Shown here in pieces: positions 16,130 to 23,204 of a stretch of DNA of 64,000 nt. Within the stretch, counting starts at the first letter, position 1, and each line of letters begins with the position of its first letter. Location of the stretch: NCBI GenBank assembly GCA_036679645.1, contig JAZDCY010000063.1, positions 1-64,000 of the forward strand. The letters run 5' to 3'. The translations under genes were made by a program, and so were the position numbers. The notes beneath the pieces are model-generated. The model saw nothing but the letters and a program-made list of their open reading frames with translations, did no database searches and was not told where the DNA came from. This DNA comes from Gemmatimonadota bacterium. Lineage in GTDB: Bacteria > Gemmatimonadota > Gemmatimonadetes > Gemmatimonadales > GWC2-71-9.

Positions 16130-16210
16130 AAGATAGGAAGGCCGGAAGCTAGCAGCAAGCGGCACAACAGCTTGCAGGAATTGACAATGGCACCGCCCGG
16201 TCCCTACGAT
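16130..16210. promoter_or_regulatory. Divergent sigma70-type promoters for truA and trpD (leaderless or near-leaderless)
   Basis: Minus strand TTGCTG(16158-53)-N17-TATCTT(16135-30)-N8-ATG; plus strand TTGACA(16181)-N18-TACGAT(16205)-N9-ATG; no SD before either start. Confidence 0.6.
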
Positions 16211-16219
16211 TGCCATCTC

Positions 16220-17269
16220 ATGACAGAGTCGAACTCGCCCACCACTCCACCCGAGCCGTTGTTGCACGCGCTCCAGAAGCTCTCGAGCGGCGAACGTCTC
16301 GGCGAGACACGCGTCACCGACGCGCTCCACTGCCTCATGACGGGCGAGGCAACTCACGCGCAGGCGGCGGGACTTCTCATGGGCATGCGCGCGCTTGGCG
16401 AGACGGGCGAGGAGTTGGCAGGCGCGGTGCGTGCGCTCCGCGCGGTGATGCGCGCGGTTCAGCTACACGAGCCCGGCCCGGTGGTCGACACCTGCGGCAC
16501 GGGAGGCGGCCGTATTCCGACATTCAACGTATCGACCGCCGCAGCGATCGTAGTGGTGGGCGGCGGTGTGAAGGTCGCCAAGCATGGCAACCGTTCTTAC
16601 ACATCAAAGTGTGGTTCGGCGGACGTGCTCGAGGCTCTCGGCGTGGAAATCGCGACCGACCCGACCCGTGCAACCGAACTTCTCACCTCCCGCGGGCTGG
16701 CCTTCCTCTATGCACCCGCGTTTCACCCGGCCATGAAACACGTGGCACCGGTGAGGCGAGAGCTGGCTGTACCGACGGTAATGAACCTCGTTGGGCCGCT
16801 GGCGAACCCGGCCGGTGTACGGCGCCAGGTGGTCGGCGTCGCCGACCCAGATCGGGCACCCGTGGTCGCAGATGCGCTCGCCCGACTCTCGACCGAGCAC
16901 GCGCTCGTCGTGCACGGCGAGGTTGGAATGGACGAGATTGCCCCGCACGGCCTTACGGCGGTCTGGGAAATCAGGGGTAGTGAAGTCACCAGGTGGAAGA
17001 TCGATCCGGCATCATTGGGCCTCGCCGCCGCCGACCTTTCTGCTCTCGCCGGTGGGGAGCCAAACGAAAACGCTCGTCGTATCGAGACGTTGCTCGCTCG
17101 CCCCAACGCCGATCCTGCGGGGCGCGCTGTCGTCGCGCTCAATGCGGGTGCGGCGCTCTACGTTGCCGGCGTTGCCACGTCGTACGCAGAGGGCGTTGAG
17201 CAGGCCCTGGCAGTACTAGATACGGGAAAGGGGGCGGGGGCTCTGGAGCGTATTCGGGGGAGAGGCTGA
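16220..17269 (+). CDS. trpD: Anthranilate phosphoribosyltransferase
   Basis: VDTCGTGG, FNVST, KHGNRS, GSADVLE, NLVGPLANP, GMDEI; ATG at 16220. Confidence 0.96.
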   Translation: MTESNSPTTPPEPLLHALQKLSSGERLGETRVTDALHCLMTGEATHAQAAGLLMGMRALGETGEELAGAVRALRAVMRAVQLHEPGPVVDTCGTGGGRIPTFNVSTAAAIVVVGGGVKVAKHGNRSYTSKCGSADVLEALGVEIATDPTRATELLTSRGLAFLYAPAFHPAMKHVAPVRRELAVPTVMNLVGPLANPAGVRRQVVGVADPDRAPVVADALARLSTEHALVVHGEVGMDEIAPHGLTAVWEIRGSEVTRWKIDPASLGLAAADLSALAGGEPNENARRIETLLARPNADPAGRAVVALNAGAALYVAGVATSYAEGVEQALAVLDTGKGAGALERIRGRG

Positions 17270-17270
17270 C

Positions 17271-17338
17271 GATTTGAGATTAGTGATTCGAGATTGGCAG
17301 CGGTCAAATCACAAATCACCAATCAGCAATCGCAAATC
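17271..17338. repeat. Inverted heptamer tandem arrays (GATTnnn)4/(nnnAATC)5; probable bidirectional terminator
   Basis: GATTTGA GATTAGT GATTCGA GATTGGC - loop - tcaAATC acaAATC accAATC agcAATC gcaAATC, between convergent trpD and lexA. Confidence 0.75.
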
Positions 17339-17945
17339 AGTACTTTCTAATAACGCCCACCACGACTCCCTGCACGAGCACATCGTCTTCATGTACCCGT
17401 ATAGGCCGCACCCGATCGTTGGCCGGCTGGAGGCGGACCCAGCCACCCGCTTCCCGGTAGATGCGTTTTACGGTAGCGGATGTGCCCTGGATGAGCGCAA
17501 CGACCATTTCGCCGTCGTCCGCAGACTGCCGATTGTGCACCACCACGTAGTCGCCGTCTTCGATGTGGTCGTCGATCATCGATTCGCCGTTGACGCGAAG
17601 CACGTAGCTCGAACCGCGGCGCGGAATGAGGTCGTTGGGAACGGCGATCGTCTCGTGCTCGGCAATGGCCTCGATGGGCTCACCAGCCGCAACCTGCCCG
17701 AGCAATGGAAGCTCGGTGGCACCAGTCTGCCCAGGGACGGGCATCAGCTCGATAGCCCGGCTCTCGTTGTGTGAGCGCCGGATGTATCCTTTGCGCTCGA
17801 GGTTGGTGAGATGCTCGTGGACAGTGGCGAGGGAACTGAACGTGAATTCCTCTGCGATCTCCTCGAACGACGGCGCGTAGCCGTTTGTCCTGATATAGCT
17901 TTCGAGGTAGTCGAGTATCTGCCGTTGGCGCCGAGTGAGCGGCAT
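17337..17945 (-). CDS. lexA: SOS repressor LexA
   Basis: MPLTRRQRQILDYL..GYAPSFEEI wHTH; VAAGEP cleavage site; GESM Ser and ATVK Lys dyad. Confidence 0.97.
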   Translation of the reverse strand: MPLTRRQRQILDYLESYIRTNGYAPSFEEIAEEFTFSSLATVHEHLTNLERKGYIRRSHNESRAIELMPVPGQTGATELPLLGQVAAGEPIEAIAEHETIAVPNDLIPRRGSSYVLRVNGESMIDDHIEDGDYVVVHNRQSADDGEMVVALIQGTSATVKRIYREAGGWVRLQPANDRVRPIRVHEDDVLVQGVVVGVIRKY

Positions 17946-17972
17946 TCGCCTCGCTCCAGAAGAGTGCCAGAA

Positions 17973-18020
17973 CCGAAAAAAGGCCGAAGTGAGTATACCC
18001 GAAAAGCTCCCGAACCGCAA
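17973..18020 (-). promoter_or_regulatory. lexA promoter overlapped by two TTCGG-N6-TTCGG direct-repeat operators (candidate SOS box)
   Basis: TTGCGG(18020-15)-N17-TATACT(17997-92); CCGAA on the plus strand at 17973, 17984, 17999 and 18010 (11-bp period pairs). Confidence 0.7.
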
Positions 18021-18029
18021 GGATACTGG

Positions 18030-18860
18030 GTGAGCCGCGAATCGCTCACCACCATTCTGACGGCCACACGGGAGCGGGTGGACCGGCTGCGGCCGCGGCT
18101 TGCGCAACTCCGGCACGCCGCGCGCGACGTACCACCGCCACCTTCCTGGACTGATGCCTTCGGCGCGCCCGACGTTTCCCTCATCGCGGAGATCAAGCGT
18201 CGGTCGCCGTCAGCGGGACCGATCGCGCCGTCCATAGACCCCGCGACCCACGCCCACGCTTACGCTCGCGGAGGCGCGCGCGCGATATCGGTACTTACCG
18301 ACACGCTGCATTTTGGCGGCACTCTGGACGACCTGATCGCGGTGCGTGGCGCGACGCCACTCCCGGTCCTGCGCAAGGACTTCATCCTCGATCCGGTCCA
18401 GCTCTACGAGAGCTGTGTCGCCGGGGCTAGTGCCGTGCTCCTGATCGTACGCGCACTCTCCGATGACCAACTTCAGGAACTCGCAGGTATGAGCGCGGAG
18501 CTGGGCCTGGCGCGGCTGGTCGAGGTTCACGACCACGAGGAACTCCGTCGCGCTGTGGCGGTGTCGCCGGACGCCATTGGCGTGAACAGCCGGGACCTCG
18601 AGACCTTCGCGGTCCATCTCGACGGCGTCGAAACGACATTGCGCCAGGTCCCGGAGCACATCCCGGCGGTCGTCGAAAGCGGAATTACCAATCGCGCGGA
18701 CGTCGAGCGGGTTGCGGGGTGGGGGGCGGACGCTATTCTGGTGGGAACCGTGTTGGCGGGCGCTGTTGATCCCGCTCGGGCAGCACGCGATTTCTGTGGC
18801 GTGCCCCGCATCGCCCGTAACACACCCCGACCCAAGGACACCGCCGGAGGCCAAGTGTGA
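18030..18860 (+). CDS. trpC: Indole-3-glycerol phosphate synthase
   Basis: [42 protein letters not shown]. Confidence 0.95.
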
Positions 18861-20053
18861 CCGCTCTCGAGGGCGCGGTACGTGAAGGACGCTTTGGACC
18901 GTTCGGGGGTCGATACGTACCCGAGACTCTGATCGCCGCGTTGGATGAGCTCACCGCGACGTACGACGCCGCGCGGGGCGACCCTGCTTTCCGGAGCGAG
19001 TTGGACGGACTGCTCTCGTCCTACGTCGGGCGACCGACACCGCTGACGGCGGCGCCGCGTCTTTCGGATGCCGCCGGCGCCCGTGTCTGGCTCAAGCGAG
19101 AGGATCTCTGCCACACCGGCGCGCACAAGATCAACAACACGATCGCCCAAGTGCTGTTGGCCCGGCGGATGGGCAAACACCGCATCATTGCCGAAACCGG
19201 TGCCGGCCAGCACGGAGTTGCGACATCCACCGCGTGCGCCCGATTCGGGCTCGAGTGCGTCATCTTCATGGGCGCGGAAGACATGGAGCGGCAGCGCCTG
19301 AACGTATACCGGATGGAGGTGTTGGGAGCGACGGTAATACCTGTGACATCCGGCACGCGTACGCTCAAGGATGCCACCAACGAGGCGCTCCGCGACTGGG
19401 TGACCAACGTGCAAACGACGCACTATATCATCGGGTCGGTCGTGGGCCCCGATCCGTTCCCGCGCCTCGTACGGGACTTCCAGAGCGTCATCGGGCGGGA
19501 AGCCCGCGAGCAGTTTCTCGTCGCTGAGGGCCGGCTGCCGGACACCGTTACAGCGTGTGTCGGTGGCGGGTCGAACGCGATGGGTATCTTCACAGCCTTC
19601 CTGGACGACGACGACGTTCGGCTCGTCGGCGTCGAGGCGGCTGGTGAGGGACTCGACACAGGCCGTCACGCGGCTTCCCTCAGCGCCGGCCGCCCCGGCG
19701 TGCTTCACGGCAGCCTCAGTTATCTTCTTCAGAATGCCGATGGCCAGGTGGCCCCAGCACACTCCGTTTCTGCCGGTCTCGATTACCCGGGGGTGGGACC
19801 AGAGCACGCCTACTTGCGGGAAACGGGGCGTGCGTCGTACGTCACCGTCACCGACAGCGAGGCGTTGGCGGCGTTCGAAGCACTCGGCCGGTTGGAGGGG
19901 ATTCTCCCGGCGCTGGAGACGGCGCACGCGGTGGCCTGGCTACTGCGGGAGGGACCGGGTGGAAACGCCGGTGATCTCGTGGTGCTCAATGTGAGTGGCC
20001 GAGGGGACAAAGACGTGGCACACGTTGCAGCGATCCGAGGGGACAAGGTGTGA
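18857..20053 (+). CDS. trpB: Tryptophan synthase beta chain
   Basis: [23 protein letters not shown] (PLP Lys), [20 protein letters not shown]. Confidence 0.98.
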
Positions 20054-21732
20054 CCGACCCAACCGTCACCGATTCGGACACTGTCGATACTACCGCGGTA
20101 GAGGCGTTGCTGCAGTCCCTGCTCAAGGGAATGCGTGCGACGCAGCTCTACATGCCGAACAACCCCGTGTACCAGACCGCGATCGGGAACGTGCGTAAGG
20201 CATTCGCCCCCGTGTGGGAGGAGGTGGATGAGCTCGAACTCGTCGTACAGGAAAACGAGATCGTCTGGCAGGGTGAGCCCGTCTTGAGTCAGCCTCGCAA
20301 CGAGAGCCTCGCCTGGATGCTATTCAAGGACGGCCTGCGGTCGCTGACCATCGCGCGTGGCGCGGAGGACGACGAGATCCCGCACTTTCTGGATGTGCTG
20401 CAGCAGGCGCGCAACCTACCACCGGAAGCGGACGATGATCTGCTGACGCTGCTGTGGGAACAGAATTTCGAGTCCATCAAGTACGAGTTCGTCGAACTTG
20501 CCCCGGAGGACGCCGCACAGCTCACAAAGAGCGACGACGAGCCGCAACCGCCTGCCGCCGCGCCACGTCAGGTCGTGGAAGAAGAGCAGCAGGAGAACGA
20601 AACGCCACAGGGCGTGGTGAACCTCGAGGATTTCGATTCGACACTCTACTTCCTTGACGACACCGACATCGCGTACCTCAAGGCCGAGTTCGAGCGGGAG
20701 TACAACCAGGACCTGCGCGGCAACGTGCTGTCCGTCCTGTTCGACTTGTTCGAGCTCCAGACCTATCCCACGGTCCGCGCAGAGATCATCTCGATCATCG
20801 AGAACCTCATTCCCTATCTGCTGGGCGCCGGTGATTTCCGCTCGGTGGCGTACATTCTGCGGGAAAGCCGCGTCGTGCTGGATCGCGCCCGCGAGGTGCT
20901 TCCCGAACAGGCCGCATCGCTAAAGGAGCTACCCGCCCGCCTGTCCGAACCGGAGGCCATCACGCAACTTCTCCAGTCACTCGACGAGGCAGTGATTCAC
21001 CCAACAGAAGAGGAGTTGGGCTCACTATTCGGCGAGTTGCGCGGCGGCGTGCTCGAGACGGTGCTCGAGTGGCTGCCGCGCATGACCAACGAGCGGGTGC
21101 GCGATATCCTCGGGCTCTCGGTGCAGAGGATTGCCGCGCAGTATCCCGACGCTCTGGCCAAGGCGATGGGAAGCAATGACGATCATGTAGTCCTCGAGAC
21201 CGTTCGTCTGGCTGCCAAGCTGAAGCTACCGCCCGTCATCACCGCGTTGGGCAGCCTGCTCATTCGCGAAGGCACCTCCGAACTCAAGGTCGCGGTCGTC
21301 GATGCCTTGTCGGCAATCGGCTCCCCCGGAGCCATGCAGCAACTCGAGAAGGCCGTGTCCGACCAGCATCGCGATGTCCGCGTGGCCGCGGTTCGCGTGT
21401 TGGGGACGCGCGGCCATCGTGCCGTGTTCCCCAAGGTGGAGGCCACGGTGCTGGGGAAGGACCTCAAGGACTCGGACCTCACCGAGAAGATGGTCTTCTT
21501 TGAAGCGTACGGACGTCTCGCCGGCCCCGATGCGATCACGCACCTGAAGCCGATGCTTTCATCGGGCGGCTTCATGAAGAAGAAACCCGATGTCAATACC
21601 CGGGCCTGCGCCGCGATGGCGCTTGGGAAGATCGGCACGCCCGAAGCTCGCGAGCTGCTGGAGCGTGCGACACAAGACAAGGATCCGCTCGTGCGAAACG
21701 CGGTCAACAAGGCCCTCCGGGAGGCTAAGTGA
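20050..21732 (+). CDS. HEAT-repeat protein
   Basis: All-helical; C-terminal HEAT-like units ([41 protein letters not shown]); N-terminal LY.PNNP module also seen in the next gene. Confidence 0.8.
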
Positions 21733-23204
21733 CCGACACCGGCGAACGGGCTCGGCCCACGATCTCCTCGACGGTGCAGAGCACGGACGGGCTGATCCGG
21801 ACCGCGGGCCGCGAGTTCCTGGTGCACTTCTATGCGGCACTCCGGACCCTGAAACTCTATCCCGTCGAGAACGAACAGGTCCAGCGCGCCCTCGACGATC
21901 TCGACAAGTCGGCGCGCATCATAATCGAAATCGAAGAGCCACTAGAGATCCGCATCAGCGGCGAGTTCATCTTCGTCAACGCCATCCGCCTCCGCCTCAA
22001 CCTGGACAACTACGCCTCGTTCGGTCACGTGCTGAACATCTTTGCGGCGTCCGGGGTCGGCGTGATGACGGTCGACGAAGACGTCCAGCGCCGGGACTGG
22101 CAGATCTTCGTCTCGCTGCTCCTTGCGTCGGTCAGCACACCGCCGACGGCTGACAAGCTGACCGATCTGCACCAGAAGATGCTCCAGGGTGGGGTCACGA
22201 ACATCAGCGTCGATCCTCCCGTGGACCTCGACGAGGAACTCGAGAACGAAGATCGACGCAAGGAAGTCGCCAAGCGCACCTATGAGCGGTCGGTCGCGGT
22301 CACCAAGGAAGTCGTAAACAGCGTGCGCATGGGACGTAGTGCCAGCGTCAAGAAAGTGAAACGCGCGGTGCAGGGGATCGTTGACCAGGTACTGAGCAAC
22401 GAGGTCTCACTCGTGGGCCTCACTACGATCCGCGATTACGACGAGTACACGTTCACCCACTCGGTTAACGTGTGCATCTTCGCGGTCGCGATTGGCCGAC
22501 GCCTGGGCCTCACGCGGCTCCAGCTGTACGATCTCGGGCTCGCCGCGCTCTTCCACGATGTCGGCAAGAGCCGAGTGCCGCTCGAGGTGCTCACGAAGAC
22601 CGGCGCGCTCGATGAGGACGAATGGCGCATCATGCAATCCCACCCATGGCTCGGGGTCCTCACGCTCTTCGGGATGCGCGGATATGGAGAGATCCCGTAC
22701 CGTGCGATGATCGTTGCCCACGAACATCACATGAAGATCGATCTCACCGGGTATCCCAAGGCGCTGCGCGAGCGTGATCTTACGGCCTACTCGAAGATCG
22801 TGGCCGTGGCCGACGGTTTCGATGCCGCGACATCGCGACGCTCGTACCAGACCGTTCCGCTCCAGCCGGACGAGGTCCTGCGCGAGATGTGGGAGAACCC
22901 GCGGCGCGGGTACGACCCCGTGCTGGTGAAGGCGCTCATCAACCTGGTGGGGATCTATCCTGTCGGGACCTGCGTCATTCTCGACGGCTACGAGCTGGCG
23001 GTCGTCCACGCGGCCAATTCCGACCTCACGCAGATTCACCGGCCCATGGTGCGCATCGTCATGACCGAAGACGGACAGCGGATACCCGAGGGGCAGCTCG
23101 TCGACCTGGCCGAGGTCGGAGCTGACGGCAACTTCAAGCGATCGATCATCAAGGTGACCGATCCGGCTAAGTGGGGCATTACACCCGGCGACTACTTTGT
23201 CTGA
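21729..23204 (+). CDS. HD-GYP domain protein (cyclic dinucleotide phosphodiesterase)
   Basis: YTFTHSVNV, FHDVGK, HEHH..DLTGYP, VADGFDAATSRRSY. Confidence 0.9.
   Translation: MTDTGERARPTISSTVQSTDGLIRTAGREFLVHFYAALRTLKLYPVENEQVQRALDDLDKSARIIIEIEEPLEIRISGEFIFVNAIRLRLNLDNYASFGHVLNIFAASGVGVMTVDEDVQRRDWQIFVSLLLASVSTPPTADKLTDLHQKMLQGGVTNISVDPPVDLDEELENEDRRKEVAKRTYERSVAVTKEVVNSVRMGRSASVKKVKRAVQGIVDQVLSNEVSLVGLTTIRDYDEYTFTHSVNVCIFAVAIGRRLGLTRLQLYDLGLAALFHDVGKSRVPLEVLTKTGALDEDEWRIMQSHPWLGVLTLFGMRGYGEIPYRAMIVAHEHHMKIDLTGYPKALRERDLTAYSKIVAVADGFDAATSRRSYQTVPLQPDEVLREMWENPRRGYDPVLVKALINLVGIYPVGTCVILDGYELAVVHAANSDLTQIHRPMVRIVMTEDGQRIPEGQLVDLAEVGADGNFKRSIIKVTDPAKWGITPGDYFV

What the first reader, a model, noticed from the sequence alone, without database searches (positions are those of the whole stretch)
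17973..18020. Candidate lineage-specific SOS box: two TTCGG-N6-TTCGG direct repeats over the lexA promoter
Seen: on the lexA strand, TTGCGG-N17-TATACT, with one TTCGG-N6-TTCGG filling the spacer (18014-17999) and a second just downstream of the -10 (17988-17973). Both have an 11-bp period. Known: lexA is autoregulated, usually by tandem operators, and direct-repeat boxes GTTC-N7-GTTC are used by Alphaproteobacteria and Acidobacterium. Inference: a variant box with a relaxed first base and conserved trailing GG that could define this phylum's SOS regulon.
Basis: partly seen in the sequence, partly recalled or inferred. Interest (0 to 1): 0.7.

Follow-up and report, generated by a model that had tools for sequence, protein, structure and literature searches.

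The report
Direct-repeat LexA operator of Gemmatimonadetes
Two copies of a short repeated DNA word lie over the promoter of the DNA-damage repressor gene lexA, and the same word lies before recA and other repair genes across this class of bacteria, so it is very likely the repressor's binding site, a known kind of switch that Patescibacteria share.

Summary
Observation confirmed: TTCGG-N6-TTCGG at 18014-17999 (inside the TTGCGG-N17-TATACT spacer) and at 17988-17973, ahead of the genome's only lexA hit. The closest relatives are Gemmatimonadales. Of 152 distinct lexA upstream regions in the class, 133 have two exact boxes, 18 have one and 1 was too short. The box also precedes recA (22 of 24 relaxed, 9 exact), a radical-SAM gene (15 of 16) and imuB (6 of 7), against rpsB 0 of 24 and 0.35% of this genome's genes. 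It is very likely the LexA (SOS) operator; binding is untested. It is not lineage-specific: a Ca. Falkowbacteria (Patescibacteria) lexA promoter has the same box in the same place, and Glassbacteria, in the same phylum, use TTCGC. The fifth base tracks helix residue 44 (Glu with G, Lys with C), on only one or two independent changes. My searches found no paper on Gemmatimonadota; the 2017 Patescibacteria paper was not readable and may give this motif. The scan found this box before on other DNA.

The parts
17999..18014 (-). Box 1, TTCGG-N6-TTCGG, filling 16 of the 17 nt between the -35 and -10 hexamers; predicted LexA operator
   Evidence: same position in 127 of 152 relatives
17973..17988 (-). 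Box 2, TTCGG-N6-TTCGG, over the predicted transcription start (about 17985, inferred from the -10); predicted LexA operator
   Evidence: starts 24-27 nt after box 1 in 120 of 133 two-box relatives
18015..18020 (-). Predicted -35 hexamer TTGCGG of the lexA promoter
   Evidence: TTG conserved in relatives; not called by the consensus scan
17992..17997 (-). Predicted -10 hexamer TATACT
   Evidence: TA...T 98-100% conserved in 133 relatives
17949..17957 (-). Purine-rich stretch before the ATG, likely ribosome-binding site of lexA
   Evidence: sequence; inference
17337..17945 (-). lexA, 202 aa: recognition helix S38-L-A-T-V-H-E44-H, cleavage site A87-G88, catalytic S122 and K160
18030..18860 (+). 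trpC, the divergent neighbour; its likely start lies 16 nt from box 1 (context, not the target)
   Evidence: the box persists where trpC is absent

Best explanation
The two TTCGG-N6-TTCGG repeats over the lexA promoter are very likely operators for this bacterium's own LexA repressor, which would keep lexA and a small set of repair genes off until DNA damage. One LexA dimer would sit on each 16-bp box, its two DNA-binding heads reading head-to-tail TTCGG half-sites one helical turn apart (inferred). Box 1 fills the promoter spacer and box 2 covers the predicted start, so bound LexA would block RNA polymerase (position shown, effect inferred). After damage, activated RecA would trigger self-cleavage at A87-G88 by S122/K160 (residues shown, activity inferred from the family) and free lexA, recA, the imuB/DUF72 pair and a radical-SAM repair gene. 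Glu44 of the recognition helix likely reads the C paired with the fifth G (inferred from co-variation).
For: (1) lexA upstream regions in the class: 151 of 152 scored have at least one exact box (133 two, 18 one, 1 too short), including 22 of 22 from other orders. In the first 30 loci there were 0 matches further upstream, 0 on the other strand, and no spacing other than N6 among N0-N8. (2) Other damage genes in relatives: recA 9 of 24 exact and 22 of 24 relaxed, with 1 exact match in 86 kb of flanks; radical-SAM gene 15 of 16 exact; imuB 6 of 7. Controls: rpsB 0 of 24; 12 of 3446 called genes of this genome. (3) In this genome the 7 sites above 20 bits are all intergenic although 89% is coding by my gene caller; they include lexA twice, recA, the radical-SAM gene and the DUF72/imuB pair. 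(4) In 5 near-complete genomes a tightened pattern gave 44 matches against 3 for the reversed control; 12 of the 30 returned as loci precede lexA, recA, radical-SAM, imuB, imuA-like or GIY-YIG genes. (5) The box occurs in either orientation at radical-SAM and recA promoters, as expected of an operator. (6) Only one LexA was found in this genome, with intact catalytic and cleavage residues. (7) Box and protein change together: E44 in 151 of 151 class proteins with TTCGG; K44 in 13 of 13 proteins of other classes, whose half-sites end in C 29 times, T 3 times and G never; E44 with TTCGG in the Patescibacteria-type loci; K44 with TTCGC in L673, a separate clade. E44 aligns with E. coli E45, listed as DNA-binding in PMC13416735 (passage).
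Against: No binding or expression data; no RNA holder was listed. The relaxed pattern was defined after I saw the recA sites, and the weight matrix was trained on lexA, recA and radical-SAM sites of relatives, so neither is a blind test. The gyrB control was not clean: 4 of 24 exact. 2 of 24 class recA genes and 6 of 6 recA genes of other classes lack a box within 350 nt. 3 of the 7 top sites in this genome have no repair gene beside them, and 18 of the 30 loci were not assigned to repair genes. Relatives are not independent. The E/K pattern may rest on a single change, since one K clade is not rejected (p-AU 0.077).
Confidence: 0.92

Rival explanations
1. The box is the site of another damage-responsive regulator that controls lexA, recA and imuB together, and LexA binds elsewhere.
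For: No binding test exists. Some class genomes have a second, distant LexA-like gene. PMC8565304 describes non-canonical SOS repressors in Bacteroidetes (passages).
Against: The box is doubled at lexA itself. Its fifth base follows LexA residue 44 in four groups. This genome gave one LexA hit only. The known E. coli and Gram-positive boxes are absent from 152 of 152 upstream regions.
Confidence: 0.05
2. The repeats are part of the promoter itself, read by a sigma factor or an activator, and not a repressor site.
For: Box 1 sits at a fixed place between -35 and -10 in 127 of 152 loci.
Against: It occurs reversed at 8 of 16 radical-SAM promoters and 3 of 22 recA promoters. Box 2 lies downstream of the -10. 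Ordinary TTG and TA...T hexamers are conserved around box 1.
Confidence: 0.015
3. The repeats regulate the divergent trpC-trpB genes (tryptophan synthesis) and lie by lexA only through proximity.
For: trpC starts 16 nt from box 1 and is the divergent neighbour in 92 of 125 loci.
Against: 25 of 25 loci with no trpC in at least 1400 nt upstream still carry the box. The box precedes recA, imuB and radical-SAM genes far from trp genes.
Confidence: 0.005
4. The words are UUCG tetraloops of RNA hairpins, or chance.
For: UUCG is a well-known stable loop (recalled). The exact pattern is not enriched genome-wide over other spacings.
Against: The stretch folds worse than its shuffles (z +1.91). 293 of 572 TTCG words have no closing pair and only 16 have four or more. 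Box 1 lies upstream of the predicted start. Conservation is 151 of 152.
Confidence: 0.005

Closest known systems
Patescibacteria LexA operator (Sanchez-Osuna, Barbe, Erill 2017, PMID 28618189; paper not held; seen only as a reference in PMC7739468 and PMC8565304)
   Same: PMC7739468 cites it among the references for direct-repeat recognition by LexA (passage). Tested here: a Ca. Falkowbacteria lexA and two related unnamed lexA genes have TTCGG-N6-TTCGG in the -35/-10 spacer and the helix T[VI]HEH.
   Different: I could not read the published consensus, so identity with it is likely but unverified. Those promoters showed one box, not two. Their LexA is 42-43% identical to this one and does not form one clade with the Gemmatimonadetes proteins (p-AU 0.008).
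Alphaproteobacterial LexA box GTTC-N7-GTTC (passages of PMC8565304 and PMC3323433; the Acidobacterium capsulatum paper, Mazon 2006, seen as a title only)
   Same: Direct repeat, 11-bp period, shared TTC core. The Sinorhizobium meliloti lexA upstream region carries GAAC-N7-GAAC.
   Different: The leading G is not conserved here: 17 of 152 class loci match GTTC-N7-GTTC and this one does not. Two further bases, GG, are fixed. The helix differs (SKSGIHRL against SLATVHEH).
Balneolaeota LexA direct repeat TTACACATATTTTWTACATA (PMC7739468, passage)
   Same: A direct-repeat LexA site found by comparing lexA promoters, then confirmed by EMSA; regulon of lexA, recA, error-prone polymerases and a radical-SAM gene.
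   Different: Unrelated letters, another phylum.
E. coli lexA autoregulation by two operators (PMC7440846, passages)
   Same: Two operators near the transcription start of lexA, single operators at most other SOS genes.
   Different: E. coli boxes are inverted repeats (CTGT-N8-ACAG, recalled), found in 0 of 152 loci here.

Membership tests
LexA (SOS) operator | Lies over the promoter of a canonical lexA gene | tested here: met
LexA (SOS) operator | Conserved before orthologous lexA genes | tested here: met
   151 of 152 class loci
LexA (SOS) operator | Present before recA and error-prone repair genes, rare before unrelated genes | tested here: met
   recA 22 of 24 relaxed, radical SAM 15 of 16, imuB 6 of 7; rpsB 0 of 24; background 0.35%; but gyrB 4 of 24
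LexA (SOS) operator | Two half-sites with a rigid spacer | tested here: met
   58 pairs at N6 and none at the other spacings N0-N8 in 30 loci
LexA (SOS) operator | Cognate LexA with intact helix-turn-helix, Ala-Gly site and Ser/Lys pair | tested here: met
   G88 164 of 164, S122 and K160 163 of 164 (one truncated)
LexA (SOS) operator | Bound by purified LexA; binding lost on half-site mutation | not testable with these tools
   needs EMSA or footprinting
LexA (SOS) operator | Target genes induced by DNA damage, depending on RecA | not testable with these tools
   no RNA holder listed
Alphaproteobacterial box GTTC-N7-GTTC | GTTC at both half-sites | tested here: not met
   own promoter does not match; 17 of 152 relatives do
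Alphaproteobacterial box GTTC-N7-GTTC | Direct repeat with 11-bp period | tested here: met
Patescibacteria LexA box | Same letters and place as in Patescibacteria lexA promoters | tested here: met
   three distinct loci, one named Ca. Falkowbacteria
Patescibacteria LexA box | Matches the published 2017 consensus | not testable with these tools
   paper not held; motif not among the passages shown from the PMC8565304 supplement, 21 of 78 TTCGG hits viewed
Gram-positive box GAAC-N4-GTTC | Inverted repeat with 4-nt spacer | tested here: not met
   0 of 152

The most novel reading that the evidence does not exclude
A wide group of LexA proteins, in Gemmatimonadota, Patescibacteria and other lineages, reads head-to-tail TTCG(N) repeats at an 11-bp period, and one residue of the recognition helix sets the fifth base: Glu44 reads G, Lys44 reads C and Tyr44 reads A. 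One substitution would then reprogramme the SOS box, giving a simple, testable code for how LexA motifs drift, and the Gemmatimonadetes regulon mapped here would be the first for that class.
Probability: 0.5. Interest if true: 0.55.

Novelty: new member of a known kind. Interest (0 to 1): 0.36.

Why it matters
It gives a usable SOS box for a class of mostly uncultured bacteria for which my searches found none in print. Its damage regulon can now be predicted from sequence: lexA, recA, imuB/DUF72 and a radical-SAM gene, with uvrB and gyrB in some lineages. It also gives a natural pair for a bench test of how LexA changes its motif, Glu44/TTCGG against Lys44/TTCGC within one phylum. It is not a new kind of system: direct-repeat LexA boxes are known from several phyla, and this one is shared with Patescibacteria.

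Tried and rejected
Metagenome scan for tandem TTCG repeats: 120 loci, mostly simple repeats or chance; 7 had lexA downstream, all with G at the fifth base and, in the 6 whose helix was held, HEH; no other lineage was reached. Viral scan with TTCGGNNTATATTCGG: 0 of 120 loci had a repair gene among my 7 queries; treated as chance. Viral scan with promoter context: 4 of 90 loci had lexA; the other 86 were not followed, so LexA control of phage genes is neither shown nor excluded. Plasmid searches: no Acidobacteria or Patescibacteria record among the rows listed (40 of 89 and 60 of 126), so the Acidobacterium box was not compared on DNA. gyrB failed as a negative control (4 of 24) and rpsB was added. 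Consensus promoter scan gave no call. RNA-hairpin reading rejected; trp-regulation reading rejected. No RNA holder listed. Taxon of L673 not obtained. Papers not held: PMID 28618189, PMC4951493 and one id I recalled for the E. coli LexA-DNA structure paper. No structure or complex prediction was run, because the tools do not model protein with DNA.

Full report
Observation. On the - strand, TTCGG starts at 18014, 18003, 17988 and 17977, giving two TTCGG-N6-TTCGG boxes 26 nt apart. TTGCGG (18020-18015) and TATACT (17997-17992) lie 17 nt apart around the first. These are the only two matches in the window; 0.20 are expected and 1 of 100 shuffles reached two. The gene below is lexA (17945-17337; TIGR00498, 212.7 bits against a cut-off of 110.95), the only match in this 93%-complete genome. 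It lies antisense between trpD and trpC. The 80 closest lexA loci are all titled Gemmatimonadota, Gemmatimonadetes, Gemmatimonadales, Gemmatimonadaceae or Gemmatimonas. Two results cut the other way. The consensus scan did not call the promoter (8 of 12). Genome-wide, TTCGG pairs at N6 (17) are no commoner than at other spacings (7-25), so many of the 17 exact sites are chance.

Conservation at lexA. In the first 30 loci (own included; 30 of the 38 genomes with a match among 41), 28 had two boxes and 2 had one. There were none further upstream, none on the other strand and none at other spacings from N0 to N8. Pooling loci, with duplicates and the own locus removed, 133 of 152 class loci have two exact boxes, 18 have one and 1 was too short to score; 22 of 22 from other orders have at least one. 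From I used the 30 best loci plus 40 regions that I picked for distance. The spacer varies freely except for a T (77%) two bases before the second half-site, and the base before TTC takes all four values. Box 1 is framed by TTG (86/99/86%) and TA...T (100/98/98%) among the 133, which is the real support for the promoter; 127 of 152 loci have this geometry. GTTC-N7-GTTC matches 17 of 152; the Gram-positive and E. coli boxes match 0.

Regulon in relatives. I chose 30 genomes across 12 family codes (24 in the class, 6 in other classes) and scored -350 to +40 of each gene. recA: 9 of 24 exact and 22 of 24 with TTCG-N7-TTCG(G/C), a relaxation I defined; 1 exact match in 86 kb of flanks. Radical-SAM gene (found in 16 of 30 genomes): 15 exact, 16 relaxed, 8 of them with a reversed copy. 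imuB (found in 7 of 29): 6 exact; the seventh has two boxes 1.35 kb upstream. Controls: rpsB 0 of 24; 12 of 3446 called genes of this genome, 0.35%. gyrB, meant as a control, has the exact box in 4 of 24 and uvrB in 3 of 24; I read these as lineage-limited members, but the gyrB result weakens the control. PMC8565304 names an SplB radical-SAM protein and imuA-imuB-dnaE2 as SOS members in other phyla (passages); that this radical-SAM gene is an SplB orthologue was not tested.

Regulon in this genome and in five others. A matrix trained on relatives gives 7 sites above 20 bits in this genome, all intergenic although 89% is coding by my own caller. They are recA, the radical-SAM gene, the divergent DUF72/imuB pair, lexA box 2, and three without a repair gene beside them; lexA box 1 scores 19.7, eighth. 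In five near-complete genomes a tightened pattern gave 44 matches against 3 for the reversed control. Of the 30 returned as loci, 12 precede lexA, recA, radical-SAM, imuB, imuA-like or GIY-YIG genes; 1 precedes a YdjM gene; 5 are two repeated mobile-element stretches; 5 appear to lie inside genes; 7 were not assigned.

Rivals. The box does not follow trpC: 25 of 25 loci with no trpC in 1400 nt upstream keep it. It is not an RNA hairpin (z +1.91; 16 of 572 TTCG words have a stem of four or more pairs). Its free orientation at other promoters argues against a sigma-factor element. Another regulator cannot be excluded without a binding test.

Not lineage-specific. Other classes of the phylum have TTCGC-N6-TTCGC in the same spacer: 10 of 13 loci have a TTCG pair within the region held, with fifth bases 29 C, 3 T and 0 G, and 3 have none. 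One of these proteins is named Glassbacteria. In them the variant also precedes two IMS-family polymerase genes but none of 6 recA genes. Earlier scan notes pointed to Patescibacteria, and I tested that. A promoter-context scan of the viral collection gave 90 loci; 4 of them (3 distinct, 32-41% GC) have lexA just below TTCGG-N6-TTCGG. One protein is named Ca. Falkowbacteria and the three form a clade, 100/99.

Recognition. Helix residue 44 is Glu in 151 of 151 class proteins and Lys in 13 of 13 from other classes. The Patescibacteria-type proteins have Glu and TTCGG. L673, from a separate unnamed clade, has Lys and TTCGC while keeping L39 and E61 of the class type, which removes two other candidate positions. 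Two related long LexA fusions with Tyr at this position have (A/T)TCGA at an 11-bp period. E44 aligns with E. coli E45, given as DNA-binding in PMC13416735 (passage). That Glu would accept a bond from C and Lys donate one to G on the opposite strand is my inference from general chemistry. On a 25-protein quick tree, with that column left in, one clade of the Glu proteins is rejected (p-AU 0.008) but one clade of the Lys proteins is not (0.077), so the pattern may rest on one or two changes.

Mechanism. Shown: positions of the boxes, their conservation, their company of repair genes, and an intact LexA (A87-G88, S122, K160). Inferred: one dimer per box, blocking of polymerase from the spacer and the start site, and release on RecA-driven cleavage. 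Two operators at lexA and single ones elsewhere match E. coli (PMC7440846, passages). How a symmetric dimer reads a direct repeat was not modelled; the flexible linker noted in PMC8565304 is the likely means.

What is known. Direct-repeat LexA boxes are reported for Alphaproteobacteria (passages of PMC8565304 and PMC3323433) and Balneolaeota, and PMC7739468 cites the Patescibacteria and Acidobacterium papers on the same point. I saw those two only as references. Searches for LexA with Gemmatimonad- (2 and 6 papers, none on this by title or abstract start), with TTCGG as a whole word (0), with Patescibacteria and with Gemmatimonas (no occurrence of the name in the 25 listed of 2,033) found no description for this class. 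Most subscription papers are outside the library, and motif databases were not searched.

Verdict. A real and very probably functional LexA operator; a new member of a known kind, shared with Patescibacteria, and found before by this scan in at least 13 other genomes. Interest 0.36.

Noticed in passing
window 16187-18860: lexA lies antisense between trpD and trpC, which point the same way; this order holds in 77 of 102 full-length related loci. A trpD-trpC transcript would run through lexA antisense, and the likely ribosome site of trpC abuts the lexA -35.
   Followed up: partly
window 17265-17345: The gap between the converging ends of trpD and lexA folds into a long imperfect hairpin on both strands (z -3.3 and -4.1); the terminator scan did not call it.
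   Followed up: partly
L378, L381, L386, L388 (gyrB upstream, about 1400-1500 in gene orientation): Exact boxes before gyrB in 4 of 24 class genomes, three of them in one family code; gyrase may be under SOS control there.
   Followed up: partly
L137:1501-1516 (G000:C17:41795), L135:1501-1516 (C9:52215), L138:1501-1516 (C19:15762): Three high-scoring intergenic boxes without a repair gene: 199 nt before an AcrB-family gene, 44 nt before a nucleotidyltransferase/HepT pair, and one with no called gene nearby.
   Followed up: partly
L139:1501-1516 (G000:C21:9100): An exact but weaker box inside the start of a Ku gene that diverges from ligD.
   Followed up: no
L674 and L676, about 745-800: LexA fused to a long C-terminal part (open frames over 450 aa) with Tyr at helix position 44 and (A/T)TCGA words 11 bp apart just after a TATAAT hexamer. 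Many long LexA fusions of 430-890 aa also appear among the representatives.
   Followed up: partly
L460:1502-1845: A viral-collection contig encodes a short protein with a LexA-type DNA-binding head (57% identity over residues 1-68, helix SFATVHEH) and apparently no peptidase part; it could bind the same box.
   Followed up: no
L742 and L747, 1501-1517 (G082); L725:1501-1517 (G123): Exact boxes between an AlpA gene and an S24-peptidase gene in a repeated mobile element, and before a YdjM-family gene.
   Followed up: no
window 20050-23204: A 560-aa helical-repeat-like protein and a 491-aa protein with HD-GYP-like motifs sit between trpB and trpA (labels from my reading of the sequence, not scanned).
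   Followed up: no
G025, G027, G029, G031, G033, G035, G039 (second matches): Several genomes of one related family carry a second, distant LexA-like gene (29-37% identity); its binding site was not examined.
   Followed up: no
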